Positions 9,354 to 62,063 of a stretch of DNA of 64,000 bases are shown here, in pieces. Numbering within the stretch: the stretch's first letter is position 1; each line of letters starts with the position of its first letter. The position numbers were made by a program, and so were the translations under genes. The DNA comes from a virus (taxonomy: Duplodnaviria; Heunggongvirae; Uroviricota; Caudoviricetes), in IMG/VR virus record IMGVR_UViG_2925939204_000001; one strand, given 5' to 3'. A model generated the notes under the pieces. It did not search any database and was not told the origin of the DNA. It was given only the letters and a program-made list of their open reading frames with translations.

Positions 9354-10259
9354 ATGAGATCAGTCGCTTTCAAAAATATCTTCATCTATCGTCTTTCACG
9401 CGAAGTTAGCTGGGATACTGCAGAAGTAAATGCAGCCCTTAGCAAGTTTGTGTTTACCCCATGCGGTTCTCAGGATATGGCTAAAGCTGGTTGGACCTCC
9501 GTTCTTGGTGACAACCTCACCCATGAATACCAGGGTTTTCTTCTGATACAGCATAAACGAGAGGAAAAAATCCTACCTTCTCAAGTGCTCAAAGAAGAGT
9601 TACAGAAAAAAATCCTGACACTTGAAGAAGAGCAAGACAGAAAGCTGAAGAAGACCGAAAAAGATTCGCTGAAGGATGAAGTGCTTCACTCTCTTCTTCC
9701 TCGTGCTTTCACGAGAAAATCACTCGCCAAAATCCTGATCGACCGCAGCAACCATCTGGTATTCGTTGAGGCAAGCAGCGCCAAAAAGGCAGAGGACCAG
9801 CTGGCTTTATTGCGAAAATCGCTCGGCAGCCTGCCTGTCATTCCATTCACACCACGCGAACCGCTGGAAATTACAATGACCGAGTGGTTTAAAAACGGCT
9901 TCCCTGCCGGATTTACAGCAGGTGAAGACGCCACATTAAAGGGTCTGCTCGATAATGGTGGTGCCGTTCGCTGCAACAAAGTTGATCTACAGTCCGACGA
10001 GATTATGTCTCACATTGAGGCGGGGAAAGTAGCTACGACCGTTGCAATTAACTGGATGGACCGCGCGTCGTTCAGAGTCAACGATGATATGAGTATCAAA
10101 GCCCTGACATTCTGTGATGATCTCTATGACCAGAACGACGATATCGACCGGGAGGATGTAGCACAACGATTTGATGCTGATTTCGTGCTCTTTACGGGCG
10201 AATTATCTGCACTGTTTAACGCGCTGGTGGAGGCCATTGGCGGTGAAGCAGAACGTTAA
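9354..10259 (+). CDS. rdgC: recombination-associated protein RdgC homologue (P1 HrdC-like)
   Basis: Near colinear similarity to E. coli RdgC as recalled ([34 protein letters not shown], [15 protein letters not shown]). Confidence 0.85.
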
Positions 10260-42444: not shown

Positions 42445-42890
42445 TGGGTAACTTTGGAAATTATTTCATTTTTATCATGGCATTTGTTGCCATCATTGAC
42501 CGTTTCATTTTTCGTCGCAAGAGTGTTGAGATTTTGAGTATTGGTGACGCTGTAGTGAAAGAATCCGCTATAGCATTTCCTGTTTCGCTACGTGTTAAGC
42601 GAAGCTGGTTCAGCAATGCTCAAATCGAATATTGGTTGCAAGACCTGAAAAATCCATCTGTGGTTATTTCAGGGAAAACGCGACCAGTTGACGCTTCAAA
42701 ACGCGGTGAGAGAGAAGAGTATTTGCTCATCGATACGAAATATCTTGAGCCAACGAAGTGGGATCTGAAAGTCACATTGACTAACGGTAACTGCCGACTG
42801 AATCCGCTTTATCGCATTTTCCCTATCAATGACTGCATAGAGCGCCAGTTTACGATCGAAAAGCGTGAAGGAGACTGGGATGTCAAATAA
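42444..42890 (+). CDS. membrane-anchored protein (antiholin/lysis-associated candidate)
   Basis: N-terminal TM FIFIMAFVAIIDRFIF; coupled start (TAATG). Confidence 0.3.
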   Translation: MGNFGNYFIFIMAFVAIIDRFIFRRKSVEILSIGDAVVKESAIAFPVSLRVKRSWFSNAQIEYWLQDLKNPSVVISGKTRPVDASKRGEREEYLLIDTKYLEPTKWDLKVTLTNGNCRLNPLYRIFPINDCIERQFTIEKREGDWDVK

Positions 42891-43500
42891 GAATAATTAT
42901 GTTCTTCTTAATTATGATGAGTTAAACGAAAAGGGGCTGGCAAAACTCGTCAAAGAAATCAGCAAAGGTGGTTACAAGATAGCGAGGGTGATCCCTGCAA
43001 GTAATGGCAGGAAGAAAGATGGGATCATGACGCGCACGTTTACCCTTATTGGTATTGATGAACAGACAATGGAAGTTCAGGTTAACGATACCGGTGATAT
43101 ATCTGGGATCAAACTGAATGGTAAAACAGTACCGTTCAAGCCAGTAAAAACAATGTCGTCTTTGGGGCAATCTCTTGCGGCTTTATTTAATCGTGGAGCA
43201 ACTTCTTTCCAGAAGTCATTAGCTCGAAAACTTGCTCGTGCAGCAAAAAATATTGACGACGGAAATAAGAAGCGGCAGGGAGTTAAATCTAGCGCTCAGA
43301 AATTAGCTGAAGCGAAAGAATCACGTGATGCACTCCGTGAAGATATCGCTAATGCTAACGACAAACTGTCTAAACTCCAGAGCAAGTCAGACAAAGTAAT
43401 GCAAGATACGGGTAATGTTAAAGCTGCCTTGTCTCAGGAAGTAGCTAAGACACGTGCTCTTAAAGAAGAAATCGCGCGCCTGGAGGATGAGCATGATTAA
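42880..43500 (+). CDS. coiled-coil protein, candidate Hdf-like component of a Dar-type anti-restriction operon
   Basis: ATG at 42880 after GGAG; size and order relative to the following large gene. Confidence 0.3.
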   Translation: MSNKNNYVLLNYDELNEKGLAKLVKEISKGGYKIARVIPASNGRKKDGIMTRTFTLIGIDEQTMEVQVNDTGDISGIKLNGKTVPFKPVKTMSSLGQSLAALFNRGATSFQKSLARKLARAAKNIDDGNKKRQGVKSSAQKLAEAKESRDALREDIANANDKLSKLQSKSDKVMQDTGNVKAALSQEVAKTRALKEEIARLEDEHD

Positions 43501-45430
43501 CAATCCTTTACGAATTAATATTCAGTCTACTTTTGCTGATACGATCCCCGGCTATATGCCAAGTCGCTGGTCTTCAGAAGAATTAAGCGAAGATGACCTG
43601 ATTTTTGAGGCGGCGACCTTAGAAGATATTGAGCTTGCCTATATGGGCAATGAAATTCTGGTTGTGTCTGACGAAGCTATGTTTGAGTCCATAACTACAA
43701 CCAGAATTCGGTTAGCTCAAACAATGCGAGCTTTCGTCCGTGCGCTGAATCGTGGCCTGAATGGTACGAATATTATGGCAGGGACTGATGAAGCTGGGAC
43801 CGATGAAAATGGACGTAATTGTATTGGTGGTGCGATTATCGGTCGTGTACGTCGGGTAGCTAATATCCCTGTTTTGACCGCGCAGATACCGCTTACTGAC
43901 GGGCAGAGTACAAGCATAATTTTCCACTCTCCAACAGCTGACGGGGCAAAAATAAAGAGTAACGACGAGCTTGTTGCATTTCAGTTTTTACTTAATAAGC
44001 GTAACGTAACTCACGTTGTCGCCCCGATTGGTGGGAGAGATGTTTCTTTAAGCCAGGTATGCCAGGCGCTATCTAATTTGATTGAGCGTAACAGCGAAAA
44101 ATTTAAGAAAGCAAAAGAGCGCCAGGATAAAATGAAGGCAGATATTGAGAGTTATCTCAATGAAGCAGATAAACTGGCAGAAGAACGGTCAATAATGATT
44201 GATCAGGTGGACGTTGCGCAACGTGGGCTGACTGAAAAGCGTGCTGCTCTTACGGAGATGCAAAAAAAACTTGATGCCCAGAAAGCCATCAACGAGGAAT
44301 TACAAGAAAAACGCGATAAATTGTTGTCTGCTAAAGGTGAAAAAACGAAGGAACGAGCGTTTAGTGACCAGCTGCGACATGTAAAACATAATCTTGCCAT
44401 TGACGGAAAAACAGTGCTGGATAATGGCGCTGAAGTTAATTATATCACGTCCGGCAGTGACAATTTCGTTACGATAATAGCACCTGAAGGTAAATTCAGT
44501 ATTGATGCCAGTGCTGTCAAAGGAGGCAGTTTGGCAGATGCTGCAACCAAATTACTTAAAGCCTACCGAGAGCATAACGCAGATAAATATAAAGTTGATG
44601 TGTTACCAGGCCAGCAGGAAGACCCCGAACCACCACAGACAGACCCCGAGACGAACCCAGTATCACAACCAGAGAGCCAGGATGTAGGTAAATACCACTA
44701 TGCACTTCAATCTCGCCCGGCTGGTGTTGGTGCTGTGCCGGATGGAAATAAAGCCGTGCTTGATCGTCCTGACCAGGCTGATCAGTATTACGAATATGCT
44801 CGTCACGGTATCATTACGTATGACCGTAAACTGACAGATGAAGAAGTCAGCCAGTACGAGTTGCTCTATCTTCCTGATGAAGATGAGCTGAAAGATTTTG
44901 CAGACCAATTGGTTGCGTCCAGCATGTCGAAACATATTGATGGCTATGTGGACCTGTTTGGCAGTGACCTGAAAACATTCAAGGCGCAAGTGAAAATTCT
45001 TTTCCGCAAAGAGTTTCCGAACGTGGCTTATCCGCTTGGTGATGGGGAGAACCTTTTCATTATGGACGTATATAACGCCCTTCAAAATCATTCAAACGAA
45101 GCAACGCCAGAGCCTGAATTAGCACCTGTAGTTGAGCCAGAATCCCACCCACAAACAGAACCAGAGCAACAGCCAACGCCGGAAGACGCTGGAGAAGCGG
45201 CAACTGAAGCAGATCAGGAAGCAGATAAAGCGTTGGAGTACCTTAAATCCGTCCCGGTGCAGTTTACATCCCGCGATCTGACGGTAATCAGTGCCGAACT
45301 TGACCATGTGCAGGAAGCTGCAAACGCTCTTATCAGTGCTGGTCGATACGACGAGAACGAATCAACGGTTGGCGCAGCAGTTGACTACCTGATCAACATC
45401 CTGGCTGAAATTCAGCAGGGAGGTGCTTAA
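43493..45430 (+). CDS. large acidic coiled-coil protein, candidate DarA-like packaged anti-restriction protein
   Basis: About 646 aa; operon order after lysis-like genes as in the P1 dar operon; no sequence-level confirmation. Confidence 0.3.
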   Translation: MINNPLRINIQSTFADTIPGYMPSRWSSEELSEDDLIFEAATLEDIELAYMGNEILVVSDEAMFESITTTRIRLAQTMRAFVRALNRGLNGTNIMAGTDEAGTDENGRNCIGGAIIGRVRRVANIPVLTAQIPLTDGQSTSIIFHSPTADGAKIKSNDELVAFQFLLNKRNVTHVVAPIGGRDVSLSQVCQALSNLIERNSEKFKKAKERQDKMKADIESYLNEADKLAEERSIMIDQVDVAQRGLTEKRAALTEMQKKLDAQKAINEELQEKRDKLLSAKGEKTKERAFSDQLRHVKHNLAIDGKTVLDNGAEVNYITSGSDNFVTIIAPEGKFSIDASAVKGGSLADAATKLLKAYREHNADKYKVDVLPGQQEDPEPPQTDPETNPVSQPESQDVGKYHYALQSRPAGVGAVPDGNKAVLDRPDQADQYYEYARHGIITYDRKLTDEEVSQYELLYLPDEDELKDFADQLVASSMSKHIDGYVDLFGSDLKTFKAQVKILFRKEFPNVAYPLGDGENLFIMDVYNALQNHSNEATPEPELAPVVEPESHPQTEPEQQPTPEDAGEAATEADQEADKALEYLKSVPVQFTSRDLTVISAELDHVQEAANALISAGRYDENESTVGAAVDYLINILAEIQQGGA

Positions 45431-45804
45431 TGACTATCTCTGTTTTAGACCGTCTGAAATTGGGTAAAGAGCTATCAGATTTAATGCAGGCGCAGAAAAC
45501 CGCGCCAGTATTACAACGCGTCGCAATTGGTAAGCAGATTGTTGATCTGATGCTTAAGCTGGGGCTGGGTGCTGCCGCTCAACCGATATCGGAACCGCAA
45601 CCGCACCCACAGTCTGATCCTGTTGCAGATGAAGTTCCTAAGATAGTGACTGACTTCCTGGGCGGTGTGTTCACAAAGTCCACACAAATGGAATTTATTG
45701 ATGCGCTGCGTGGGATCTCAAACTATGTTGGCGAGTTCCTTACGTTGGAGCAGGCTAAAGAGCAGACCATCGGTTGGGTTAAAGCCAACGGATATGCCGG
45801 ATAA
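45430..45804 (+). CDS. hypothetical protein (DdrA-like by position)
   Basis: ORF track; TAATG coupling with the upstream gene. Confidence 0.35.
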   Translation: MTISVLDRLKLGKELSDLMQAQKTAPVLQRVAIGKQIVDLMLKLGLGAAAQPISEPQPHPQSDPVADEVPKIVTDFLGGVFTKSTQMEFIDALRGISNYVGEFLTLEQAKEQTIGWVKANGYAG

Positions 45805-45834
45805 TCCAAAGGGGCTGAAATACCCCTTTCACTT

Positions 45835-47225
45835 ATCCAGTGCGCCATAAAACCCCGTCCTTCAGGGCGGGGATATAAGGCGCGGTTTTCCACCTAAATT
45901 TTTTTGTTTAAAATAGCGGGATGAAACGACTACAGGCATTTAAATTCCGGTTAAGACCAGATGGTCAACAGGAGCGAGAAATGAGGCGCTTCGCGGGAGC
46001 TTGTCGTTTCGTTTTCAATCGTGCTCTGGCGCTTCAGAATGAGAATCATGAAGCCGGGAACAAATATATTCCTTACACAAAAATGGCTTCCTGGCTGATT
46101 GAGTGGAAAAATGCCTCTGAAACGCAATGGCTTAAAGATTCTCCCTCACAGCCATTGCAGCAATCACTGAAAGACCTTGAGCGGGCCTACAAAAATTTCT
46201 TCCAGAAGCGTGCGGCTTTCCCCCGATTCAAAAAGCGGGGACAGAATGATGCATTCCGCTACCCGCAGGGCGTTAAGCTCGATCAGGAAAACAGCCGTAT
46301 TTTTCTGCCGAAACTGGGCTGGATGCGCTACCGGAACAGCCGTCAGGTCACGGGTGTTGTGAAAAATGTCACTGTCAGCCAGTCCTGCGGTAAGTGGTAC
46401 ATCAGTATTCAGACAGAAAGTGAAGTATCAACTCCGGTTCACCCTTCAGCATCAATGGTCGGGCTGGATGCTGGCGTGGCTAAACTCGCCACGCTGTCAG
46501 ATGGCACAGTCTTTGAGCCTGTAAACAGTTTTCAGAAAAACCAGAAGAAGCTGGCGAGACTTCAGCGACAGTTAAGCCGCAAGGTCAAATTCAGCAACAA
46601 CTGGCAGAAGCAGAAACGCAAAATACAGCGACTGCATTCCTGTATCGCAAATATCCGCAGGGACTACCTTCACAAAGTCACAACGACCGTCAGCAAAAAC
46701 CACGCAATGATAGTCATTGAGGATTTGAAGGTCAGCAACATGTCAAAGTCAGCAGCGGGTACGGTCAGCCAGCCGGGGCGCAATGTCCGGGCAAAATCAG
46801 GTTTAAACCGTTCGATACTGGATCAGGGCTGGTATGAAATGCGCCGCCAGCTTGAGTACAAGCAGCTCTGGCGTGGCGGTCAGGTGCTTGCTGTTCCGCC
46901 AGCGTACACAAGCCAGCGTTGCGCGTACTGTGGTCATACAGCGAAAGAAAATCGCCTGTCACAAAGTAAATTCGAGTGCCGGGCATGTGGATATACAGCG
47001 AACGCCGATATAAACGGCGCTCGTAACATTTTAGCGGCGGGACACGCCGTTCTTGCCTGTGGAGGGATGGTGCAGTCAGGCCGCCCGTTGAAGCAGGAAC
47101 CCACCGAAATGATTCAGGCAACAGCCTGAGCGTAGCAGGAATCCATGTTCTTGAGGGCGTGGAGGATGTCAACTGTTCTCACATAAATCACACACTTTTT
47201 ACACTTCCAGCTTTCTCTATAGGGG
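45835..47225 (+). mobile_element. IS200/IS605-family element carrying only tnpB, with subterminal hairpins; boundaries approximate
   Basis: TnpB ORF flanked by imperfect hairpins (AACCCCGTCC-ttca-GGGCGGGG at 45851-45874) and no TnpA gene. Confidence 0.55.
45921..47129 (+). CDS. tnpB: TnpB (OrfB) RNA-guided endonuclease, apparently intact
   Basis: RuvC-like residues in GLDAGV, IVIEDLK and [10 protein letters not shown]; C-terminal zinc finger CAYCGH...CRACG. Confidence 0.85.
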
Positions 47226-47235
47226 GGAGTGTATT

Positions 47236-48621
47236 TTGAACAAGTCAGTTACTTCTGCGCTTTCCGAGGCCGCAGATATTAACAGCGTCATTGCTCTGGT
47301 TTCTTCATTAGAGAGGAAAGAAACACGCCTTGGGCGAAGTAGCTACGTAGTCACCAGCAAAGGTGCAGAGGTAAAGACGGCTTTTAAGGTCGTTGATGCC
47401 AGCAGTCTGATCATTTCGAACAACCTTGACGGTACGATTAACCTGGCCTTCCCGGAAGAACTCCAACCACGAGATCGTACCCGGCTATCCAGCAAACTCC
47501 AGGTTAACCGTATTGCCTCCAATTTACGCCCGGCACAATTAACGGATTCCGGTATGAGCAGCCACGGAGCGCCGATAGTTGGTCCGGACAACGTTGTAGA
47601 ATCCGGCAACGGAAGGAGTATGGGTATCTGGCGTGCCTATGAGCAAGGACAGGCGGATGAGTATCGCCAGTACCTGATCGACCATGCGAAAGAGTTTGGT
47701 CTGAATCCTGACGAAATTTCGCAAATGTCTATGCCCGTACTGGTGCGAGAAAGACTCACAGATGTAGACCGCGCTCAATTTGCCCGCGATTCAAACATTA
47801 GCGATCTGCAAGAGATGGCAGCAAGTGAAAAAGCGTATGCGGATGCGCAATTTCTCACTGAGAGCGTCATGGCGCTATTTAATCCTTCAGATGATGGAAA
47901 TCTGCTGGCGCGGTCCAATGATGCGTTTATTCGTGCGTTTTTGCGCGAAATTGGCGATACAGCGACGGCAGGCTTGCTTACTGCCGATGGGCGTCCCACG
48001 AAACAGCTTATCGATCGCATCCAGAATGCAATTTTTGCCAAAGCGTACAAGGATGAAAGGCTTGTTCGGCTGGTGTCGGAAGAGCCAGATCCGGAAATGC
48101 GTAATATCCTGACCGCATTAAATACGGCAGCCAGCGATTTTGCGCAAATGCAGTCGCTGTCTGGCGACGCTCACCATGACGCAGTAACAGGCTTAGTGGA
48201 CGGTATAGAGCAGGTTAATGGCCTGGATACACAGGCGATAGCAGCACTCCAGGAAGCAATTAATCTTGTACGTGAAGCCAAAGACAACGGTCAGGCCGTT
48301 GAAGAAGTGATCGCCCAAAGGGGGTTATTCGGCGACAGTACACCGGAAGCTGAGGCATTGGCGCTATTCATCGTAGCAAATAATCGCAGTGCGAAGCGTA
48401 TGGGGGCCGCATTCAAAAAAATGGCGCAAAAAATCAACGACGAGCTGACTCATAAACAACAGGCATTGGGCGATATGTTCGGCGGTGGCGATGTTGATCT
48501 GCGTCGTATTTTGTCTGCTGTATCTGATGAAATTGAGGGTGAATTTGGCGAAGGGAAAGGTCTGAACTTTGCTATGCTTGAAAATTCTACAGATCTAAAT
48601 AATTGCAGTATGGAAAACTAA
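47236..48621 (+). CDS. hypothetical phage protein (DdrB-like by position)
   Basis: TTG start after GGGGGGAG; ORF track. Confidence 0.4.
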   Translation: MNKSVTSALSEAADINSVIALVSSLERKETRLGRSSYVVTSKGAEVKTAFKVVDASSLIISNNLDGTINLAFPEELQPRDRTRLSSKLQVNRIASNLRPAQLTDSGMSSHGAPIVGPDNVVESGNGRSMGIWRAYEQGQADEYRQYLIDHAKEFGLNPDEISQMSMPVLVRERLTDVDRAQFARDSNISDLQEMAASEKAYADAQFLTESVMALFNPSDDGNLLARSNDAFIRAFLREIGDTATAGLLTADGRPTKQLIDRIQNAIFAKAYKDERLVRLVSEEPDPEMRNILTALNTAASDFAQMQSLSGDAHHDAVTGLVDGIEQVNGLDTQAIAALQEAINLVREAKDNGQAVEEVIAQRGLFGDSTPEAEALALFIVANNRSAKRMGAAFKKMAQKINDELTHKQQALGDMFGGGDVDLRRILSAVSDEIEGEFGEGKGLNFAMLENSTDLNNCSMEN

Positions 48622-54117: not shown

Positions 54118-54603
54118 TCATGCCTCATTAGTTGAGGTTGCTGCGTCTCCGACTGGTAACAGAGCGGTATTGCGTGGTTCGCCAGCAGGCCAGCGATAGC
54201 CAGACACTCTTGATGTTGGGAATGCGCGAATATTAACCGCATCCCCCTGGTTCCCACCCAGGACAAGCAGATCGCCATTGGCGCGGCGTCCGACAACGAA
54301 GCCTACGTGCCCACCGCCTACGCGGGTAAATACAACGATACATCCGTATGCCGGTGTATCTAATTTCTCGCCCCAATCCAGATAGGATTTTGCCGACTCA
54401 AATCTTGTTGAGCGGATGCCTACACGTTCCAGCATTGCACCGACAAATGCTGCGCACCACGGCGTTTCATCGTCTTTAATTCCGCCGCGCTTGATGTCGC
54501 GCCAGAACTGAACGATTTCAGGGTTGTGTTTAGCGCCTTTTATTTCAGTCAGGCCAATGTGCTTACGGGCTTCAATTAGCCAGCGAGGTTCAATGTTTGC
54601 CAT
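54118..54603 (-). CDS. putative cell-wall peptidase (NlpC/P60-CHAP-like phage protein)
   Basis: Candidate catalytic Cys in TPWCAAFVGAM; strong RBS; family assignment from memory. Confidence 0.45.
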   Translation of the reverse strand: MANIEPRWLIEARKHIGLTEIKGAKHNPEIVQFWRDIKRGGIKDDETPWCAAFVGAMLERVGIRSTRFESAKSYLDWGEKLDTPAYGCIVVFTRVGGGHVGFVVGRRANGDLLVLGGNQGDAVNIRAFPTSRVSGYRWPAGEPRNTALLPVGDAATSTNEA

Positions 54604-54678
54604 ATTTTTCTCCCGGTCATGGGTTAATAAGTAGGCAAACTATGGGGAGTATGTGATTTTGACGGTAGTATCGTCCCC

Positions 54679-57600
54679 GTGAAAATAACATTCTCCATAC
54701 CCTCTCAACCGTACCGCATAGCGGAATTTTTACGGTTTAGAGGGGGAAATCCTTTGGACAAACTACTTCATTCAATCAGTGAAGCCTCCAGCTTAGGCGA
54801 ACTGATTGAAATTGTTAGTCGGTTGCATAAATTACGAGCTGTTGCGACCTTTGGCGTCAGGAAAGCCGATGGCGTCAGTATTCAGAAAACACGCCGGGCA
54901 GCAAACAATGCCGCAGTAAATCTTCTTAATTCCCTTCCGCCCGGCTTCGATGGGGCGAAATTAACTGACGAACAACGTCAGATTCTTGCCGGGTATACCG
55001 GTGAAGGCGGCCTGACAGATGGTGAGGGCAGCCAATACGAATACTACACGCCACAGTTTATGGCTGAAGGTATATGGGATCTGTTTGCTGACTACGGTAT
55101 TGATGGCGGGCACGTACTGGAACCATCAGCGGGCACAGGTATTTTCCAGGAGACAAAACGACAGGGCATGATAATGACCAGCGCCGAACTGTCTCCGATT
55201 TCCGGTCGAATAAACCAGCTTTTGCACCCGGAAGACGATGTGAATATCGGGGCGTTTGAGGCGCTGGCGGCGAAAGACGCAATGTATGATCACGCTGTTG
55301 GTAACGTACCGTTTGGTGAAGGGCGTTCCGGTGTCGCCGGGCTTGATCCGGCATATGCAAACGAGAAGAACGTTGGCAATTACTTTGTGCTGCGCACGAT
55401 CGACAAGGTTAAGCCTGGTGGGCTTATCGTATTGGTGGTGCCGAATGGCATGACCGATGGTGCGAAATATAAAAAATTGCGCGATAAAGTCAGCCGTAAA
55501 GCGGAATTTTTGGGCGCGCATCGTATGCCTTCCGGTACGTTCAGTGAATCAGGTACAGATACCGTGGTGGACGTATGGGTATTGCGTAAACACCCGGAAG
55601 CCTTCCTGGAGATGATCCCCGATACGGATGATTCGACGCTCAAATCGGCAAACGTCCTTTGGGATACCTTCCTCAAAGGAAAATGGTTTACAACCGAAGG
55701 GAAGCGATTTGTTTACGGCGACATGGAACGTACCAGCTTCCGCAATACCCTGGTGGTGAAAAAAGACGGTCGTGTATCCAATGAGTCGATGAAAACCGCG
55801 CTATCTCGTCGCTTTGATAGTCGCATCAATTGGGATTTGCTCGGCGTAACTACTCAGGCATGGCAGGGCGCGAAAGTGGGCGATAAACGCCTTGTAGGCG
55901 GTATCTGGCATGAGTTTGATGGTCTGAAATGGGTTAAGGACACGACAACCAAATCCTCCGCGCTTGATGTAAGTCGATATGGTGTTTCGACGTTTGGCGA
56001 TCTGCAGATCGCGTTTCAGTCAACAAATGGCATTCTGGCTTTGTCATGGGACCAGATATCGGCGATCGCGTCTGACTACCCATCGGTTGTCAGTGATGAA
56101 GTGGCAGCAATGATTCGCTTTGCTGGCAAGCAGCGAGAAAAAGACAGGGAGCGCGTTATGCGCGGTGCACTGATAGGTCAGTTGATCAACAAGGCACTTG
56201 ATTTGCGTAACCTGGGGGTGAACGTTGATGACAAACTGGCAGATGCATCCCGCCTGGCGGCAGCAGAAGTTGCGAAGTATGGACCACCGCACGCGATTAA
56301 GCTGAATGGGCTTGCTGAAGCTGGCGCTAAAAACTGGATGACGTTCACTGGCAATGTGAAACAGGATGGTTCCACTTCTGACCTTCTGGCAGGGCGACTT
56401 GATGTAACGGATGGTGCTGCCGGTATTGACTTTACGCGTCCTGAACAAGTGATAGCACATCTTTTTAGTGATGTAGCCCTTAATCCTATAACGCTTGGCG
56501 ACTTTCGTGAGGCGTTTGCTGGTGAACTGCCAGAGGACGACGACGCGGCCCTTGAATACCTGGCGAAATTTGATGATATCGCTATTGATGGGTATGGCTG
56601 TCTGCTGCCGATGGACCGCGCCACCAGCGGCGATGTTGCAACCAAAACAGCACTGCTGGTGGGCTGGCGTGATGCGTCAACAGGTGAGCAGAAAGCGAAC
56701 TTTGAGCGTCAGTTGGCGAAAATCGAAGAGAAACGCATTTTCACGCCACTAAATAAAGTCACCGTTAATCTGAATGCCCGCTGGCTGGATCGCCGCTTGA
56801 TAAAAGAGTTCCTGGCAGAGCAGGGCTATGACGAGTTTAAGTACACTGAACCTGATCTGAAGGTCGTCGATGGCATTCTGGTATCTCCGGACGATTACGA
56901 AGGTAAGGACGGTGTATTTACCGGCTACCAGCTACGAACCGTAAACGGCAAAAACGGGAATGAGTTCAAGAAGGCCAACAATAAAGACGGCTTCCTGAAC
57001 CAGTTAGAAAACTACCTGAACGGTGTTAAACCGCGTGGGCAGAATGCTAACGAGTACCTGGATAAAATTGCTCAACTGGAAGTTAGCTTTAACGACTGGT
57101 TACGCACCCACCCGCAGGCGGATCAGATAGCCCGTGACTATAACGACGCATTCAATGGTTTCATTCCGTTCACACATTCTGACGCACCGCTAGGCCTGGA
57201 AGGGATTAGTGGAAAGCGCATTCCTCTGACTTATCAGAATGAAGAAGTTCGCCGCTTGTCAGAAGATGGGCGTGGCATCATGGGATTTGGTACCGGGCTG
57301 GGTAAAACCACGACCGCGCTTGCGCTTGAGGCGTATAACTTCGAAACAGGTCGCACTAAACGCACGTGTATTGTTGTTCCGAAGGCGGTTTATCAGAACT
57401 GGTATCACGAGGCACAGAGTTTCTACAGTGCTGATGCCTTCGCCAATATGATGTTTATCGGTTTGGATGAAGTTCGTGATGACGGCGGAAATATTCTTAC
57501 CGCGCCAGTGCTTGATGAAAATGGCGAACCACGCCTCGACAGTAACGGGCAGCCTCTTACCAGAAATGTTGTGAAAGAGTCCGCCAGCGCCGTTATCGTT

Positions 57601-60600
57601 CAGCGCATGAACATGATCCCGTCGTCAAATTGGCGAACGGTCATCATGACAAAAGAACAATTCGCGTCTATCCCGCTACGAGAAAAAACCATCGAGGAGA
57701 ACTCACAGCAAGCTGTCTTTAATGCTGTGGAAATGGGGCGTCTTGACCTGGCCTCCGGTAAACACCGTGATGCGCAGAAGAAGAACAAGATTAAGGATCA
57801 GGCCGCGAATACCGGTACAACGAAGAAGCAGAATATCCCGTACTTTGAGGATATGAACTTCGATAGCGTGATTGCCGACGAGGGGCATAACTACCGCAAC
57901 TCCTTTAATGCCGGGCGTGAAGCGGGACAACTGGCATATTTGCCTAACCCGGCAGTATCCAAGATGGCCCGCGACATGGCTGTAAAAGCTGCGTACATGA
58001 TGAAACGCAACAACGGGCGTGGTGTAGTCATGCTGACGGCAACTCCGCTGGTGAACAGTCCGATTGATGCCTTCAACATGCTGTCTACTGTCATTCCGCA
58101 GGAAGAGTGGATGCGCATGGGTATTGTTACGCCGGATGATTTCGTTCGCGTGTTCGGCAAAACAGCCACAGTTCAGGTTCAGAAAATTTCCGGTGAGGTG
58201 GAAGAGAAGCAGGGGCTGGTGGGCTTCCAGAACCTTGATGGTCTGCGTGGTATTTTCCACCGTTGGACCACTCTGAAGACTGCCGCAGATGTCGGAGCGA
58301 CGGTTAAAATTCCCGATATCATCGAGAACACCTTGCAGATCCCGATGACAGGGGAGCAGGAGGCTGCTTATGAAGAGCTTCGTAAGCGTGCTCAGGAGTT
58401 AAGTCGCAATGATGAGCTGACAGTCGATGAAAACGGGCATATCACTAACGACAAACCGGATGATTTCATCTTCTCCATCATCCGCGACATGGATAAGGTT
58501 GCTATAGATCCGGATCTGTATGCCAGTGCGATTACATTCCAGTTCCCCGTTGAGCTTGCAGACAAGGTAAAAGCTATTGCTGATGCCCTGCCAAAAGTCG
58601 CAGGCGGTAAAGTGGCAGATGATGCAGACGAGGCCGAAGAAGACGGCGCTGGTGGACTGGTCAGTACGCGTACCAGCAAGGTAGTGAAGACCACCTTTAG
58701 TGCACATCCGGCGCATGTTGAAATACGCGCCAGCATTGAACTGGAAGCTGAAATACTGAAGGCCATTGCTGCCGCCGGGATTGATCTGCAGCAGGTATCA
58801 CACCCCATCCCACCGAAGTATGCCGCGCTGATCGAAAACCTTCGTGAAGGTCTGAAGAACGGTAAACAAATTGTCTTCATTGATGAAAAAGCCCAGCACC
58901 AGAAGCTGCGCCGTATTATCGCCAGTGCACTGCAAATGCCGGAGCAGGAGATAGGCATTATCAATGCGACGACCGTTAGCCAAGCTGGCGGCATCAAGCT
59001 GAAGAAGGTGAATAAACCGACTGAACCTACTCCGAATAAAAACGGTGAATACAAAGAAGGGGCATGGGAAACCTACTACAGCAAACTTGCCCAATATGAG
59101 GATTATCTCTCAGCTAAAAATGATGCTGGCCTTGAGGGCATGGAAGGTATTGCCGCCGACTATAACGAAGGTCGCACGCGCATCATAATCTGTAACAAGA
59201 AGGCTGAAGTAGGTATTAACCTGCACATCGGGACAACCGATATCCACCACCTGACACTACCCTGGACACCAGCCAGTATCGACCAACGAAATGGTCGCGG
59301 TGCGCGCGTAGGGTCACCGCAAGAGAAGGTCAATGTTCACTACTATTGTGGCAAAGGCACATTCGATGACTTCCGTCTGGATACGCTTAAACGTAAGAAA
59401 GACTGGATCAAGATGGTGATGACCTCCGACATGTCAGAGATCGCCAATGGTGATGCGGATGATGCTGATGAACGCGCCATTATGCTGGCGGCAAACCCGG
59501 AAGAACGCCGCGCAATCATGGCTCGCCAGGCGCAAGAGCGTGAAGAACGTCTGAAACTGAAAGCACAGCGCGAGGCCAACAATGCTCTCGATATCTACCT
59601 GAAAGCGGCAAACGCCGCCGGAAAAGATATCGGCATGATGGAGACAGAACTGAAAAGCGCGATGGAACAGATAGAGTATTACCAGCGAAATCTTGACGAC
59701 CTGATAAAAGCGGGTACGAACAGGAATGGGCAAAAATACGCACTTGAGCAGTTGAGTAGCTACAGAAAACGTGCGCGGGTGCTGCGGTTTGCGATCACCA
59801 GGGCAAAAGACGCGGATACCATAATGAAACGCTCTCGTGGTGATGTGGAGCGCGCTATTAAGTCTGGTGTGCTGGATATCAGTATCGATGTTATTCAGAA
59901 CCCACAGGAGTATATGCGCACTGACAAGAATATCCTGTTGCATAAAGGTAGTTATTACCGTGCAGTCATTGATGATCGCGAAACAACAGCGATTGTCCGG
60001 GTGGAAAAAATTGACGGTGAAAAAGCACAATACCTCTGCCGTATCGCCTGGCTGGATAGAGCAAGTCGTTACGCTCGAGCACCGGGGTCAATCGTTACAT
60101 TGCCGTTTGACTCTGTGATTGAAGCGGTAACTTTTGAAGAGGGGGTAGCTGAATCGCGCGCAACGGCTGCGCGAGGTGTTCAGTGCCACCAGCTATCAAC
60201 AATACTTACTCGCGATCAGTTCTATGATGCTATTCGCAATGGGGTAATGAATGTTATTGCTGGTAAACCTGGTAATGCATGGGGCGGTGGGTCAGCTATT
60301 AAATACTGGGCATATCGCACAGATGATGGTCAGATCGCGCTGTCATCGGCCTATGATGGCGTGATAGGCCAAAAAATCGGGCGAGCATCGGATATAGCAC
60401 CTGAGCGATGGATATATCCTGATGGCAACGACGAGGCGCTGAAGCGTGAAGTAGCAAAAATACAAGCCAGTGATAACCCGCTGAATATCGTGGACGGCGA
60501 GGGATTCCTCCAGGCATTGTATGGGTATGATTACATCCAGGGAATGCAGGCATGGGGCGCACAGGCAACGATGGATGATGTTGCCCAGGAGTTCGAAAAC

Positions 60601-61590
60601 TGGATGGCTGGGCGTGGTCTGTCAGGTCGTTCGCTTAATAAAGTCACTTCTGAAGATATTCTTAGCTTGTTCCGCAAACCGTCCGGAGAAGGTCTGGAAT
60701 CATTCTGGAGGACCGTGCTGGCATACCGTTTATTCCAGGGCAGGATGAAAGCCTTTAGCAATATCGATGATATTGAACGGATGTTTAATCAGGTCAAGAT
60801 CGCGAAAATTAAGGCGAAGATCGAAAAAACACGTTCTGCGCTGGTGGCCTGGCGCGATGCATTGTTTGAGCAATATAAATCACTCAGTGATGCAGATGGA
60901 TGGGCGGCATTGGAACAGCTGGCGAATAATGGGGTAGATGGAGCTAAACTCGCCATTGTTCAGGCTGATAACCCCCTGGAATCACCGGCAGCACAGTGGA
61001 TTAAGGTGGGGGCTGTCATCAATGCATTTGATGAAAAACACATTAGTAAGGACGATTTTGCTGATGCTGTTTCTGTTAATCGCCTGGTAGAAATGGCTAC
61101 CCGCCGCGCCCGTGAGTTGAAAGACGGCGACTATGTGAATGAGTTGCCGGATACGCTCAAATCGGCAACGTGGCAGGACTATGTATCGCTGAAAAACGGC
61201 GGGGCCACTGAATCAGAGATCGCGGAAAGGCTTGAGCAGGCTGAAAGCAAAAGAGAAGAGCAGGCGGCAGTGGCTGAAGCCAGAGCTGATGAAGCGGCGA
61301 ATGATGACTATATCATTGTGGTTAATGATAAGCCGATTCGCGCTAAGGCGCGTGTTCGCGGGCGCTGGTGGAGCGTCAGCGAGGACGTTGGCGCGGTTTA
61401 TCTCATTGCCGACCAACCAGGTTCCTCGACAATACGGAACGCCAAAGACGCGATTAAGAAGATTGGCGGGCGTTTCTGGAATTTTGAAGCAAACCCGGTT
61501 GCTGATGTGAACTTTGACCGTCCTGCATGGATGGTATCTACGCGTTACTCGGTAGATGAACTGCGTAAAATAATCGCCGATGCGGCCTAA
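54679..61590 (+). CDS. darB: giant DarB-like methyltransferase-helicase (candidate packaged anti-restriction protein)
   Basis: N-terminal MTase motifs VLEPSAGTGIF and GNVPFG; helicase motifs GFGTGLGKTT, DEGHNYRN, LTATPLVNSP, QRNGRGAR; start may be the TTG at about 54754 after AGAGGGGGA. Confidence 0.7.
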   Translation: MKITFSIPSQPYRIAEFLRFRGGNPLDKLLHSISEASSLGELIEIVSRLHKLRAVATFGVRKADGVSIQKTRRAANNAAVNLLNSLPPGFDGAKLTDEQRQILAGYTGEGGLTDGEGSQYEYYTPQFMAEGIWDLFADYGIDGGHVLEPSAGTGIFQETKRQGMIMTSAELSPISGRINQLLHPEDDVNIGAFEALAAKDAMYDHAVGNVPFGEGRSGVAGLDPAYANEKNVGNYFVLRTIDKVKPGGLIVLVVPNGMTDGAKYKKLRDKVSRKAEFLGAHRMPSGTFSESGTDTVVDVWVLRKHPEAFLEMIPDTDDSTLKSANVLWDTFLKGKWFTTEGKRFVYGDMERTSFRNTLVVKKDGRVSNESMKTALSRRFDSRINWDLLGVTTQAWQGAKVGDKRLVGGIWHEFDGLKWVKDTTTKSSALDVSRYGVSTFGDLQIAFQSTNGILALSWDQISAIASDYPSVVSDEVAAMIRFAGKQREKDRERVMRGALIGQLINKALDLRNLGVNVDDKLADASRLAAAEVAKYGPPHAIKLNGLAEAGAKNWMTFTGNVKQDGSTSDLLAGRLDVTDGAAGIDFTRPEQVIAHLFSDVALNPITLGDFREAFAGELPEDDDAALEYLAKFDDIAIDGYGCLLPMDRATSGDVATKTALLVGWRDASTGEQKANFERQLAKIEEKRIFTPLNKVTVNLNARWLDRRLIKEFLAEQGYDEFKYTEPDLKVVDGILVSPDDYEGKDGVFTGYQLRTVNGKNGNEFKKANNKDGFLNQLENYLNGVKPRGQNANEYLDKIAQLEVSFNDWLRTHPQADQIARDYNDAFNGFIPFTHSDAPLGLEGISGKRIPLTYQNEEVRRLSEDGRGIMGFGTGLGKTTTALALEAYNFETGRTKRTCIVVPKAVYQNWYHEAQSFYSADAFANMMFIGLDEVRDDGGNILTAPVLDENGEPRLDSNGQPLTRNVVKESASAVIVQRMNMIPSSNWRTVIMTKEQFASIPLREKTIEENSQQAVFNAVEMGRLDLASGKHRDAQKKNKIKDQAANTGTTKKQNIPYFEDMNFDSVIADEGHNYRNSFNAGREAGQLAYLPNPAVSKMARDMAVKAAYMMKRNNGRGVVMLTATPLVNSPIDAFNMLSTVIPQEEWMRMGIVTPDDFVRVFGKTATVQVQKISGEVEEKQGLVGFQNLDGLRGIFHRWTTLKTAADVGATVKIPDIIENTLQIPMTGEQEAAYEELRKRAQELSRNDELTVDENGHITNDKPDDFIFSIIRDMDKVAIDPDLYASAITFQFPVELADKVKAIADALPKVAGGKVADDADEAEEDGAGGLVSTRTSKVVKTTFSAHPAHVEIRASIELEAEILKAIAAAGIDLQQVSHPIPPKYAALIENLREGLKNGKQIVFIDEKAQHQKLRRIIASALQMPEQEIGIINATTVSQAGGIKLKKVNKPTEPTPNKNGEYKEGAWETYYSKLAQYEDYLSAKNDAGLEGMEGIAADYNEGRTRIIICNKKAEVGINLHIGTTDIHHLTLPWTPASIDQRNGRGARVGSPQEKVNVHYYCGKGTFDDFRLDTLKRKKDWIKMVMTSDMSEIANGDADDADERAIMLAANPEERRAIMARQAQEREERLKLKAQREANNALDIYLKAANAAGKDIGMMETELKSAMEQIEYYQRNLDDLIKAGTNRNGQKYALEQLSSYRKRARVLRFAITRAKDADTIMKRSRGDVERAIKSGVLDISIDVIQNPQEYMRTDKNILLHKGSYYRAVIDDRETTAIVRVEKIDGEKAQYLCRIAWLDRASRYARAPGSIVTLPFDSVIEAVTFEEGVAESRATAARGVQCHQLSTILTRDQFYDAIRNGVMNVIAGKPGNAWGGGSAIKYWAYRTDDGQIALSSAYDGVIGQKIGRASDIAPERWIYPDGNDEALKREVAKIQASDNPLNIVDGEGFLQALYGYDYIQGMQAWGAQATMDDVAQEFENWMAGRGLSGRSLNKVTSEDILSLFRKPSGEGLESFWRTVLAYRLFQGRMKAFSNIDDIERMFNQVKIAKIKAKIEKTRSALVAWRDALFEQYKSLSDADGWAALEQLANNGVDGAKLAIVQADNPLESPAAQWIKVGAVINAFDEKHISKDDFADAVSVNRLVEMATRRARELKDGDYVNELPDTLKSATWQDYVSLKNGGATESEIAERLEQAESKREEQAAVAEARADEAANDDYIIVVNDKPIRAKARVRGRWWSVSEDVGAVYLIADQPGSSTIRNAKDAIKKIGGRFWNFEANPVADVNFDRPAWMVSTRYSVDELRKIIADAA

Positions 61591-61626
61591 CAGATAAGGA
61601 GCGGCCCCAACTGGGGCCGAATTTGA

Positions 61627-62061
61627 ATGACGACATTAATTGACACTGTAAAACAGACGGAATCCTACCTTGAGGACATTTTGCCGCAGGCGCTCAATGG
61701 CAGGAGTGAAGAGGCGTTTCTGGATGCATATCTGAAAGGCATGGTGGAAAGGCTGAAACGAGATCCACAGCTTTATCACCTTTATGGGCCGTGGTGGCCT
61801 GCGCTTAAAACGTTATTGCTGGAGCGCGGCGACATATCATTTGGACAAGTTGTAGATAGTGATGTGGCAGAGATCTACAAAATGAGTCGCCCGGCGCTTA
61901 CGGTTTTGGCTGGGCATCTGTATTCGAGCGATCGCCTGGAAAATGACGCGGTATACAATCCTGTTCATGCTCTGGAAGTCGCACCTTATGCCGATGATAC
62001 AGAGCCATACGTGTACACAAGTTACGACGAGTCTATAGAGAAATATCGAATTATGGGGTAG
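61627..62061 (+). CDS. hypothetical protein
   Basis: ORF track. Confidence 0.45.
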   Translation: MTTLIDTVKQTESYLEDILPQALNGRSEEAFLDAYLKGMVERLKRDPQLYHLYGPWWPALKTLLLERGDISFGQVVDSDVAEIYKMSRPALTVLAGHLYSSDRLENDAVYNPVHALEVAPYADDTEPYVYTSYDESIEKYRIMG

Positions 62062-62063
62062 CC

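What the first reader, a model, noticed from the sequence alone, without database searches (positions are those of the whole stretch)
54679..61590. DarB-like giant methyltransferase-helicase plus fused C5/Dam methyltransferase: stacked anti-restriction functions
A 2303-aa protein combining N6-adenine MTase motifs with a DExH helicase core, together with the 10243..12399 bifunctional MTase and the Dar-like operon at 42880..48621, suggests heavy investment in evading host restriction. These resemble known P1 systems, so novelty is limited, but the start codon and domain order of both methyltransferases deserve verification.
Basis: partly seen in the sequence, partly recalled or inferred. Interest (0 to 1): 0.4.

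Follow-up and report, generated by a model that had tools for sequence, protein, structure and literature searches.

The report
DarB anti-restriction gene of D6-like phage

Summary
The ORF 54679..61590 is real, but the protein is 2278 aa, not 2303. The true start is TTG 54754, which has a GAGGGGG ribosome-binding site, is colinear with P1 DarB residue 1, and is the start chosen by the D6 authors and by PGAP. In D6 and in a 98%-identical MAG the upstream 75 nt is frameshifted and has no in-frame start codon.

The window is a phage D6-like phage-plasmid. Its DarB is 99.2% identical to D6 orf15 ("similar to P1 darB"), the region is 100% identical at nt level to E. coli plasmid NZ_CP020051, and the protein is 43.5% identical to P1 DarB over aa 1-1935.

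Domain order: LPD36/capsid-targeting N-terminus; gamma-class N6-adenine MTase (motif IV is NVPF); ~500 aa with no domain call; SNF2 ATPase (GKT, DEGH); then a ~680-aa fast-evolving C-terminal module with no recognisable fold. Catalytic motifs are invariant in eight diverse homologues.

All Dar partners are present (Hdf, DarA, DdrA, short DdrB, Ulx). The fused Dmt (GTG 10243..12399; C5 N-terminal, Dam C-terminal) is intact and P1-like; D6 instead has two genes there.

Verdict: already known, low interest. The biochemical mechanism of DarB remains unsolved in the literature.

The parts
54754..61590 (+). darB coding sequence (2278 aa plus stop), TTG start
   Evidence: same start in the D6 annotation and in PGAP; colinear with P1 DarB; no upstream start possible in D6 or L009; TTG conserved in four alleles.
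54679..54753 (+).
   Evidence: frameshifted (T5->T6) and GTG->CTG in D6 and L009; no Shine-Dalgarno before GTG 54679.
54740..54746 (+). Shine-Dalgarno GAGGGGG, 7 nt before the TTG
   Evidence: conserved in D6, CP020051 and L009.
54754..55023 (+). N-terminal ~90 aa: region colinear with the P1 DarB capsid-targeting sequence (first 30 aa), plus LPD36-type helical domain with GxGU motif G83-E-G-G86
   Evidence: PMC9024508 for the P1 targeting sequence; PMC5512222 for LPD36.
55036..55653 (+). Gamma-class N6-adenine DNA methyltransferase domain (aa ~95-300): T99-P100 cap, motif I L122-EPSAGTG-129, motif IV N184-V-P-F187
   Evidence: Pfam N6_Mtase/Eco57I. Motifs invariant in the 7 of 8 homologues that cover this region. 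AF2 model matches HsdM, M.TaqI, M.BseCI and CamA.
55654..57213 (+). Region aa ~301-820 with no domain call (partly helical in the model, moderately conserved)
   Evidence: No Pfam hit even at E<=5; 29-46% identity to P1; AF2 pLDDT 70-90 for aa ~400-700.
57214..59553 (+). SNF2-family ATPase/translocase (aa ~821-1600): motif I G846-TGLGKT-852, motif II D1042-EGH-1045, motif III TATP, motif VI Q1511-RNGRGARVG-1520; variable insert ~aa 1250-1350
   Evidence: Pfam SNF2-rel_dom, ResIII, Helicase_C. Partial NCBIfam and PADLOC SNF2 hits. Motifs invariant in 8 homologues.
59554..61587 (+). C-terminal ~680-aa fast-evolving module: long helices, SH3/Tudor-like beta-barrels, helical domain, small beta domain; no enzymatic fold recognised
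   Evidence: 19-26% identity to P1. About 16 invariant residues in the 50-aa bins from aa 1601. Only 26 hits in 1.84e9 representatives, and every full-length one is DarB-sized. AF2 pLDDT 84.8. No Foldseek hit at E<=1e-3. Allelic classes among D6-type plasmids.
61627..62061 (+). ulx homologue (144 aa), immediately downstream of darB
   Evidence: PHROG 1629 'Ulx-like anti-restriction', 2.6e-58; 46% identity to P1 Ulx; D6 orf14.
42880..43500 (+). hdf homologue
   Evidence: PHROG 1620; 98.5% to D6 orf28, 39% to P1 Hdf.
43493..45430 (+). darA homologue
   Evidence: NCBIfam NF052326 anti_RE_DarA, 1137 bits; 97.8% to D6 orf27, 38% to P1 DarA.
45430..45804 (+). ddrA homologue
   Evidence: PHROG 1855; 34% to P1 DdrA.
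47236..48621 (+). Short ddrB-like gene (461 aa; equals the N-terminal ~440 aa of the 995-aa P1 DdrB)
   Evidence: 65% identity to P1 DdrB aa 2-434; 96% to D6 orf25.
10243..12399 (+). dmt: single-chain bifunctional methyltransferase (718 aa from GTG); C5-cytosine MTase at the N-terminus, Dam (GATC-type N6A) at the C-terminus
   Evidence: Pfam DNA_methylase plus MethyltransfD12; TIGR00571 dam and TIGR00675 dcm; 69% to P1 Dmt, starts colinear; motifs CSGIE, PCQ, ENV, QRRRR, GNS, FVGGGS and DPPY all present.

Best explanation
The ORF is the darB gene of a phage D6-like phage-plasmid, the D6-lineage orthologue of phage P1 DarB. The product is a 2278-aa protein translated from TTG 54754. By homology with P1, its N-terminal ~30 residues direct it into the prohead. 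Incorporation there depends on the other Dar proteins, all of which this window encodes (Hdf, DarA, DdrA, DdrB-like, Ulx). It is ejected into the cell with the DNA and acts only in cis on that DNA to prevent cleavage by type I restriction enzymes of the EcoK/EcoB kind.

Most likely mechanism (inferred, not shown): the DNA-bound protein uses its SNF2 motor to track along the entering duplex. Its EcoKI/TaqI-like N6-adenine methyltransferase modifies the DNA and/or the motor displaces or blocks translocating type I complexes. Both enzymatic modules are intact and under strong purifying selection. The C-terminal third is a folded, non-enzymatic, fast-diverging module, perhaps a docking or specificity surface.

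Shown here: identity, gene boundaries, domain order, motif integrity, conservation pattern, and presence of all partner genes. Taken from P1 experiments: packaging, co-ejection, cis action and EcoK/EcoB specificity. Inferred: the catalytic mechanism.
For: Identity and synteny: 98.6% nt and 99.2% aa to D6 orf15 'similar to P1 gene darB'; 100% nt to NZ_CP020051; 43.5% aa to P1 DarB over aa 1-1935, starting at residue 1 of both, with the C-termini weakly homologous (E 7e-9); ulx follows directly, as in P1.

Domains: Pfam N6_Mtase, SNF2, ResIII, Helicase_C; PHROG 1685 (full length), 11801 and 10089 'DarB-like antirestriction'; the AF2 model of aa 1-850 matches HsdM, M.TaqI, M.BseCI and CamA (607 hits at E<=1e-3).

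Motifs GEGG, TP, LEPSAGTG, GN(V/P)PFG, GTGLGKT, DEGH, TATP and QRNGRGARVG are conserved across eight homologues that are 33-53% identical. dN/dS is 0.02-0.07 over aa 351-1600.

All six Dar components are present. Type I target sites are not depleted in the window (EcoKI 9 vs 8.9 expected, EcoBI 11 vs 11.2), which fits reliance on an active countermeasure.

P1 experimental background: the N-terminal 30 aa suffice for capsid targeting, ~40 copies per virion, and DarB inhibits EcoK/EcoB (PMC9024508); cis-only action (PMC12707154); the methylase-SNF2 dyad model (PMC5512222).
Against: No experiment exists for the D6-type protein, and the D6 function is annotation by homology. The mechanism of P1 DarB itself is described as undefined in 2024-2025 papers. 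Plasmid-borne darB relieves EcoKI restriction through its Chi and EcoKI sites independently of the protein (PMC11109961), so some earlier trans assays are confounded. Motif IV is NVPF rather than the canonical NPP(Y/F), and the Pfam MTase score barely passes (20.8 vs 20.4), so methyltransferase activity is plausible but unproven. The D6-lineage DdrB is only the N-terminal half of P1 DdrB, and a tnpB element sits between ddrA and ddrB in this window; either could alter DarB loading.
Confidence: 0.85

Rival explanations
1. DarB protects purely as a stoichiometric DNA-bound shield or structural head protein. On this view the methyltransferase and ATPase folds are relics or serve only for DNA binding, and no catalysis is needed.
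For: A review states the hypothesis that Dar may physically obstruct access to the DNA (PMC12707154). About 40-45 copies are packaged per virion. Motif IV deviates from NPP(Y/F), and the Pfam MTase score is borderline.
Against: Every catalytic motif of both enzymes is conserved across eight homologues only 33-53% identical, including Walker A GKT, DEGH, motif VI arginines, and the AdoMet-binding EPSAGxG. dN/dS of these regions is 0.02-0.07. One distant member has the canonical NPPF, so NVPF is a tolerated variant. About 40 molecules cannot coat ~90 kb of DNA (inference).
Confidence: 0.1
2. The protein is not an anti-restriction factor. It is instead a defence or restriction-type enzyme of the plasmid prophage (type ISP/III-like, DISARM DrmD/DrmMI-like or BREX-like methylase-helicase) that excludes other invading DNA.
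For: Partial hits to DrmD, DpdE, ZorD and BrxHII helicase cores and to type II MTase models. The methylase-plus-SF2 architecture is shared with R-M systems (PMC5512222).
Against: All such hits are short core-motif matches far below family cut-offs (44 bits vs 610 for DrmD; <=38 bits in PADLOC). No nuclease domain was detected by Pfam, NCBIfam or PADLOC anywhere in 2278 aa. The protein is colinear with P1 DarB over its full length, with an N-terminus matching the capsid-targeting region, ulx downstream and the Dar head-protein operon present.
Confidence: 0.03
3. Much of the restriction relief attributed to darB comes from its DNA, not the protein. Chi sites combined with type I sites trigger ClpXP-dependent restriction alleviation.
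For: PMC11109961 shows this for cloned P1 darB, which has 11 Chi sites: stop-codon and catalytic mutants still relieve EcoKI. The window's darB carries 7 Chi sites, and the window has 30 against 1.7 expected.
Against: That effect was shown for resident multicopy plasmids, not for infecting phage DNA. The P1 darB phenotype is cis-acting and linked to virion incorporation of the protein, which depends on other Dar proteins. A 2278-aa ORF with dN/dS of 0.02-0.07 over its enzymatic core is maintained for its protein.
Confidence: 0.02

Closest known systems
Escherichia phage D6 orf15 (ASR76325.1 / YP_009914692.1), annotated 'defense against restriction; similar to P1 gene darB'
   Same: Same gene: 99.2% aa identity with 18 substitutions and no gaps, same 2278-aa length, same TTG start, same neighbours (peptidoglycan hydrolase upstream on the other strand; ulx and orf13 downstream). 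The region is identical at nt level to plasmid NZ_CP020051, where PGAP names the product WP_080028524.1 'SNF2-related protein'.
   Different: In this window the 75 nt upstream happen to be in frame with a GTG, which they are not in D6. Elsewhere the window differs from D6: fused P1-type dmt, tnpB insertion, no orf23/orf24.
Phage P1 DarB (YP_006479.1, 2255 aa), the experimentally studied archetype
   Same: Colinear from residue 1. Same domain order (LPD36, N6A-MTase with NVPF, SNF2 ATPase with DEGH, long C-terminal module). 43.5% identity over aa 1-1935. ulx downstream. Same set of Dar partner genes.
   Different: The C-terminal ~680 aa are only ~22% identical. The genomic position differs: in P1 darB lies next to prt/pro and near res/mod, whereas here it follows the immI-like c4/icd/ant module. 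The partner DdrB is half-length. No experiments have been done on the D6-type protein.
'DNA methylase-helicase dyad' of polyvalent proteins (Iyer et al. 2017, PMC5512222)
   Same: LPD36 with GxGU motif, EcoKI/TaqI-like adenine MTase with a TP-capped helix, and a C-terminal SWI2/SNF2 ATPase, all present in that order.
   Different: That class is defined by domain architecture across many phages and conjugative elements. The C-terminal module here is confined to the narrow P1/D6-type DarB family (26 hits in 1.84e9 representatives).
Type I R-M HsdM (e.g. M.EcoKI) and M.TaqI gamma-class N6-adenine methyltransferases
   Same: Fold of aa ~95-300: Foldseek E 4e-9 to 1e-6, rmsd 3.4 A over 200 columns to M.TaqI. 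Weak sequence match to PDB chain 7eew_A, a type I R-M methyltransferase subunit.
   Different: No HsdS-type specificity subunit or TaqI-type target-recognition domain was identified. Motif IV is NVPF. The domain is fused to an SNF2 motor and packaged in a virion.
Phage P1 Dmt (YP_006537.1, 754 aa), for the second locus 10243..12399
   Same: A single polypeptide with C5-cytosine MTase at the N-terminus and Dam at the C-terminus, a GTG start overlapping the end of hrdC/rdgC, and 69% aa identity.
   Different: The Dam half is D6-type (94% to D6 orf63). D6 itself has an unrelated 226-aa cytosine-methylase-like orf64 plus a separate Dam, so the window is a P1/D6 mosaic here.

Membership tests
P1-type DarB (virion-packaged methylase-SNF2 anti-restriction protein) | Full-length colinearity and significant similarity to P1 DarB | tested here: met
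   BLASTP aa 1-1935 vs P1 1-1924, 43.5% identity, E=0; C-termini E 7e-9. PHROG 1685 matches full length; PHROG 10089 'DarB-like antirestriction' 4e-82.
P1-type DarB (virion-packaged methylase-SNF2 anti-restriction protein) | N-terminal LPD36 domain with GxGU motif (Iyer 2017) | tested here: met
   G83-E-G-G86 within YTGEGG, conserved as G-x-G-G in all 7 full-length homologues. The region is helical in the AF2 model, but at low confidence.
P1-type DarB (virion-packaged methylase-SNF2 anti-restriction protein) | EcoKI/TaqI-like N6-adenine MTase: TP-capped helix, AdoMet motif I, NPP(Y/F) motif IV | tested here: met
   T99-P100 and LEPSAGTG 122-129 are present. Motif IV is N184-V-P-F187, the same as in P1 DarB, and is canonical NPPF in distant member P0038. 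Pfam N6_Mtase 20.8 bits vs cut-off 20.4. Foldseek hits to HsdM and M.TaqI. Strictly, NPP(Y/F) is met only as the family's own NVPF variant.
P1-type DarB (virion-packaged methylase-SNF2 anti-restriction protein) | SWI2/SNF2 ATPase C-terminal to the MTase, with intact motifs I, II, III and VI | tested here: met
   SNF2-rel_dom 46.5 bits, Helicase_C 24.5 bits. GTGLGKT, DEGH, TATP and QRNGRGARVG are invariant in 8 homologues.
P1-type DarB (virion-packaged methylase-SNF2 anti-restriction protein) | ulx immediately downstream, and the Dar head-protein genes (hdf, darA, ddrA, ddrB) in the same genome | tested here: met
   ulx 61627..62061 (PHROG 1629; 46% to P1). hdf, darA (NF052326, 1137 bits), ddrA, and a ddrB-like gene covering the N-terminal half only.
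P1-type DarB (virion-packaged methylase-SNF2 anti-restriction protein) | N-terminal capsid-targeting sequence; protein packaged in the head and ejected with the DNA | not testable with these tools
   Only colinearity of the first 30 residues with the P1 targeting sequence can be shown (PMC9024508).
P1-type DarB (virion-packaged methylase-SNF2 anti-restriction protein) | Cis-acting protection against EcoK/EcoB-type type I restriction | not testable with these tools
   Known for P1 only. Indirect support: type I sites are not depleted in the window.
Defence helicase-methylase systems (DISARM DrmD, Dpd DpdE, Zorya ZorD, BREX BrxHII, type ISP/III R-M) | Whole-protein match above the family cut-off | tested here: not met
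   Best NCBIfam DrmD hit 44.4 bits vs cut-off 610. PADLOC best 38 bits, and matches cover only core helicase motifs.
Defence helicase-methylase systems (DISARM DrmD, Dpd DpdE, Zorya ZorD, BREX BrxHII, type ISP/III R-M) | Nuclease or other effector domain | tested here: not met
   No nuclease family hit in Pfam, NCBIfam, PADLOC or PDB sequence searches. No nuclease fold in the Foldseek results for the models of aa 1-850 and 1600-2278. Residues ~850-1600 were not modelled.
P1 Dmt-type bifunctional DNA methyltransferase (locus 10243..12399) | Single chain with a C5-cytosine MTase N-terminal half and a Dam C-terminal half, both with catalytic motifs | tested here: met
   PF00145 6e-37 plus PF02086 1e-55. 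dam TIGR00571 246.6 bits and dcm TIGR00675 116.1 bits, both above cut-off. PCQ, ENV, QRRRR and DPPY present. 69% identity to P1 Dmt.

The most novel reading that the evidence does not exclude
The C-terminal ~680 aa of DarB may be a swappable specificity or docking module. It is confidently folded (pLDDT 85), has no detectable relative outside DarB-sized proteins, and has no recognisable enzymatic fold. It evolves with 2-5 times higher dN/dS than aa 351-1600. It exists in at least three allelic classes (about 99%, 88-90% and 75% nt identity) among otherwise 94-99% identical D6-type plasmids. If it determines which host restriction or BREX complexes are neutralised, or which head partner DarB docks to, allele exchange would retarget the anti-restriction system.
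Probability: 0.2. Interest if true: 0.45.

Novelty: already known. Interest (0 to 1): 0.15.

Why it matters
It matters little as a discovery. The gene, its P1 homology and its presumed role are already in the D6 GenBank record, and 100%-identical copies sit in RefSeq plasmids.

Practical value:
- A corrected gene model. TTG 54754 gives 2278 aa with the N-terminus intact, and in P1 the N-terminus is the capsid-targeting signal.
- A warning that PGAP's start for the fused Dmt removes C5 motif I.
- A residue-level domain and motif map for mutagenesis of a protein whose mechanism is still unknown.
- The observation that the enzymatic core is strongly constrained while the C-terminal third diversifies and recombines.

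D6-type DarB is found in more than 100 sequenced E. coli, Salmonella and Shigella phage-plasmids. It is therefore relevant to how these elements cross type I restriction barriers.

Tried and rejected
1. P1-type late promoter upstream of darB. A box resembling the P1 '-22' element (ATGTGATTT, then TAGTAT) lies at about 54649-54672, but the pattern AGTGAYTWN4TANNNT gave 3 matches in the window against 3.3 expected, and none at darB. Sigma-70-like and terminator-like sites in 54000-62400 are no more frequent than in shuffles. No promoter claim is made.

2. Pfam at E<=5 on aa 301-820 and aa 1640-2278 gave nothing. A PDB sequence search of the C-terminal region gave only noise (E>0.5).

3. The word-indexed homologue search of the C-terminal region returned only close D6-type fragments. 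The exhaustive HMMER search was needed to reach distant members.

4. Foldseek of the C-terminal model against PDB and BFVD gave no hit at E<=1e-3. There were only generic ~60-aa Tudor/SH3/KOW-like barrels and long-helix (tape-measure-like) similarities, from which no function is inferred.

5. Positive selection on the C-terminal third is rejected as stated: dN/dS is 0.12-0.24, higher than aa 351-1600 but well below 1.

6. The genome-contig scan with the N-terminal 320 aa gave only 3 loci.

7. Piya et al. 2017 (PMC6011833) is not held in the library. Its findings are cited only through papers that quote it.

8. An earlier GATC count of 468 double-counted the palindrome. The corrected count is 234 against 232 expected, so there is no enrichment.

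Full report
**1. The observation**

The window contains an uninterrupted + strand ORF at exactly 54679..61590, 2303 codons from a GTG. An ORF of this length cannot arise by chance. One is an ORF ending at 12399 whose longest form starts at 10171. The other is a run of + strand ORFs between 42865 and 48621.

**2. What the window is**

The 8-kb stretch around the ORF is 98.6% identical to Escherichia phage D6 (MF356679 / NC_050154), a P1-like phage. P1-family phages match only over a ~180-nt patch at ~79% identity. In the plasmid collection, 112 records from E. coli, Salmonella, Shigella and Klebsiella hold at least 80% of the stretch. Two are 100% identical: NZ_CP020051 and NZ_CP021720. The window is therefore a D6-like phage-plasmid.

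In the D6 record the gene is orf15, annotated 'defense against restriction; similar to P1 gene darB'. It is followed by orf14, 'similar to P1 gene ulx'. RefSeq and PGAP call the product 'DEAD/DEAH box helicase family protein' or 'SNF2-related protein'.

**3. Start codon**

Only four in-frame start candidates lie in the first 150 codons: GTG 54679, TTG 54754, TTG 54823 and ATG 55060. Several independent lines point to TTG 54754, giving 2278 aa.

- TTG 54754 is preceded by GAGGGGG at a 7-nt spacing. GTG 54679 has no such site.
- The D6 authors chose the equivalent TTG (2278 aa). PGAP chose the same start on the identical plasmid.
- With this start the protein aligns residue 1 to residue 1 with P1 DarB.
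- In D6 itself, and in a 98%-identical metagenome-assembled contig (L009), the upstream stretch is open for only 11 codons. The GTG is CTG, a T5 run is T6, and no in-frame start exists upstream of the TTG.
- The TTG is conserved in two further, more diverged alleles, CP043277 and CP091837.

The N-terminus matters. [quoted passage not shown]

**4. Anatomy of the protein (numbering of the 2278-aa product)**

Pfam gives N6_Mtase, SNF2-rel_dom, ResIII and Helicase_C, with Eco57I below its cut-off. PHROGs gives a full-length match to phrog_1685, plus phrog_11801 ('DNA methyltransferase', the P1 type) and phrog_10089 ('DarB-like antirestriction').

I assembled eight diverse family members: the window protein, P1 DarB, a Pantoea-type protein, and five others that are 33-53% identical. 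Their alignment has 327 invariant positions. These concentrate in aa 100-350, 800-1250 and 1350-1550.

The features that define the 'methylase-helicase dyad' of Iyer et al. 2017 (PMC5512222) are all present and conserved:

- the LPD36 GxGU motif (G83-EGG)
- the TP cap (T99-P100)
- AdoMet motif I (L122-EPSAGTG)
- motif IV
- SNF2 motifs I (GTGLGKT, K851), II (D1042-EGH), III (TATP) and VI (Q1511-RNGRGARVG)

Motif IV reads GNVPFG rather than NPP(Y/F). The same is true of P1 DarB and five other members, while the most distant member has GNPPFG. NVPF is therefore a family variant, not a lesion.

An AlphaFold2 model of aa 1-850 has mean pLDDT 67, with the MTase core at ~70-85. Its best PDB matches are type I HsdM subunits including M.EcoKI, together with M.TaqI (rmsd 3.4 A over 200 columns), M.BseCI, PacII and CamA. 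There are 607 hits at E<=1e-3. This confirms a gamma-class N6-adenine DNA methyltransferase fold.

Residues ~301-820 have no family match.

No nuclease or other effector domain was detected by Pfam, NCBIfam, PADLOC or PDB sequence search. Matches to defence helicases (DrmD, DpdE, ZorD, BrxHII) are core-motif fragments far below family cut-offs.

**5. The C-terminal third**

Identity to P1 falls from 40-68% in the enzymatic regions to 19-26% after aa 1600. The tails are still homologous: window vs P1 E 7e-9, window vs Pantoea type 28% identity, E 8e-73.

An exhaustive HMMER search of 1.84 billion representatives found only 26 hits. They are fragments or longer proteins, and every full-length one is DarB-sized. 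The module is therefore private to this family.

Its AlphaFold2 model is confident (pLDDT 84.8). It shows long helices, a beta-rich domain, a helical domain and a small beta domain. Neither PDB nor BFVD gives a hit at E<=1e-3, only generic SH3/Tudor-like barrels.

Among ~116 D6-type plasmids the helicase core is uniformly 94-99% identical to the window. The C-terminal region splits into classes: 79 records at >=95%, 31 at 80-95% and 6 at 60-80%. Whole-gene profiles show local drops to 58-67% aa identity confined to aa ~1600-2200.

dN/dS there is 0.12-0.24, against 0.02-0.07 for aa 351-1600. The signal is relaxed constraint and mosaicism, not demonstrable positive selection.

**6. The partners**

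The window encodes homologues of all six P1 Dar proteins.

| Protein | Window coordinates | Identity to P1 | Note |
|---|---|---|---|
| Hdf | 42880..43500 | 39% | |
| DarA | 43493..45430 | 38% | NF052326, 1137 bits |
| DdrA | 45430..45804 | 34% | |
| DdrB-like | 47236..48621 | 65% | covers only the first ~440 of P1's 995 residues, as in D6 |
| Ulx | 61627..62061 | 46% | |
| DarB | 54754..61590 | 43.5% | over aa 1-1935 |

According to the P1 literature, Hdf and DarA enter the head first. The other Dar proteins, DarB included, are excluded from the head when Hdf and DarA are deleted (PMC12810830). DarB is described as the last Dar component added and is present at ~40 copies per virion (PMC9024508).

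**7. How it most likely works**

Established for P1, and taken over here by homology: Dar proteins are packaged, co-ejected with the DNA, and protect only the DNA they travel with. Loss of darB sensitises the phage to EcoK and EcoB.

Shown here: both enzymatic modules of the D6-type protein are intact and strongly constrained. The window does not avoid type I target sites: EcoKI 9 observed vs 8.9 expected, EcoBI 11 vs 11.2, EcoAI 4 vs 6.0. An active countermeasure is therefore plausible.

Inferred: the SNF2 motor translocates DarB along the entering duplex. The methyltransferase modifies the DNA and/or the motor displaces type I complexes (the model of Iyer et al.).

The mechanism is explicitly described as undefined in 2024-2025 papers. 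Plasmid assays are confounded by restriction alleviation driven by Chi and EcoKI sites. The window's darB has 7 Chi sites.

**8. The fused methyltransferase**

From GTG 10243 the ORF encodes 718 aa. It begins [17 protein letters not shown], colinear with P1 Dmt's GTG start ([14 protein letters not shown]). It is 69% identical to P1 Dmt overall.

- The N-terminal half is a C5-cytosine MTase with motifs I, IV (PCQ), VI (ENV), VIII and X.
- The C-terminal half is a Dam MTase with FVGGGS and DPPY.
- The order is the same as in P1. D6's own note says its Dam gene resembles the C-terminal half of P1 dmt.
- PGAP's start on a 98.7%-identical plasmid corresponds to ATG 10324, which would delete C5 motif I.
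- D6 has a different arrangement: an unrelated 226-aa orf64 plus a separate Dam, orf63, which is 94% identical to the window's Dam half. The window is a P1/D6 mosaic here.
- Only about 20 plasmid records cover at least 80% of this arrangement.

Whether Dmt contributes to restriction evasion is not established.

**9. Comparison and verdict**

The finding is the known darB orthologue of the D6 lineage. It meets every sequence-testable criterion of the DarB family. It fails the criteria for defence helicase-methylase systems.

Novelty is 'already known'. The contributions of this check are the corrected start codon, the motif and domain map, and the description of the diverging C-terminal module.

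Noticed in passing
window 45835-47172 (tnpB ORF 45921-47129, + strand): A 1338-bp IS200/IS605-family element carrying only tnpB (NF040570, 386 bits) is inserted right after the ddrA terminator hairpin, between ddrA and ddrB. It is absent from D6. A 92-93% identical copy is annotated next to ddrA (insQ) in the P1-like phages RCS47 and SJ46, and a 93% identical copy also lies in vB_EcoM-813R1, where the adjacent gene is annotated only as hypothetical. This suggests a preferred target site or exchange between phage-plasmids. Rfam found no omega-RNA family hit at gathering threshold.
   Followed up: partly
window 48561-48632, compared with D6 locus L005 5910-7040: D6 orf24 (DUF4145) and orf23, which lie between ddrB and the portal gene (~1.1 kb), are absent from the window and replaced by ~70 bp.
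   Followed up: partly
window 10243-12399, compared with D6 locus L004 2243-3821: dmt is a mosaic. The C5-cytosine half is P1-like and fused to a D6-like Dam half, whereas D6 has an unrelated small orf64 plus a separate Dam. PGAP's start (= window 10324) on a near-identical plasmid removes C5 motif I. A Chi site (10223) lies just upstream of the GTG start.
   Followed up: yes
whole window; darB 54754-61590: Chi (GCTGGTGG) is about 18-fold over-represented: 30 sites (19 on the + strand, 11 on the - strand) against 1.7 expected under a first-order Markov model. Seven of them lie in darB. The literature reports the same enrichment for P1. GATC and the type I target sites (EcoKI, EcoBI, EcoAI) occur at chance frequency.
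   Followed up: partly
window 19054-20521 and 52704-53888: There are two separate immI-like modules. Each has a c4 antisense RNA (RF01695; 71.7 and 68.8 bits) with its a1/b1 target (RF03163), followed by an icd-like small ORF (phrog_1426) and an anti-repressor gene (332 aa and 235 aa). The second module lies just upstream of darB.
   Followed up: partly
window 47236-48621: The ddrB-like gene encodes only 461 aa, matching aa 2-434 of the 995-aa P1 DdrB at 65% identity. The C-terminal half is missing, as it is in D6; the P1 record annotates DdrB as a 'possible metallopeptidase'.
   Followed up: partly
window 12448-14109 (- strand): A full-length glutaminyl-tRNA synthetase gene (glnS; 553 aa) lies next to dmt, as in D6 orf62. 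No tRNA genes lie within the window.
   Followed up: no
window 62329-62368: A 16-bp-stem hairpin lies after the small ORF downstream of ulx (62064-62324, phrog_6844). It is a candidate terminator closing a darB-ulx-orf13 unit, but the scan called it on the - strand and such sites are not enriched over shuffles.
   Followed up: no
locus L010 9430-13584 (- strand): In the Pantoea homologue a 1384-codon ATG-initiated ORF runs antisense inside darB. It is probably a codon-composition artefact and was not examined.
   Followed up: no
window 54118-54603 (- strand): A divergently oriented 161-aa peptidoglycan hydrolase / tail-lysozyme-like gene (phrog_1259; PGAP 'TIGR02594 family protein') lies directly upstream of darB. 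This differs from the P1 arrangement, where prt and pro lie there.
   Followed up: no
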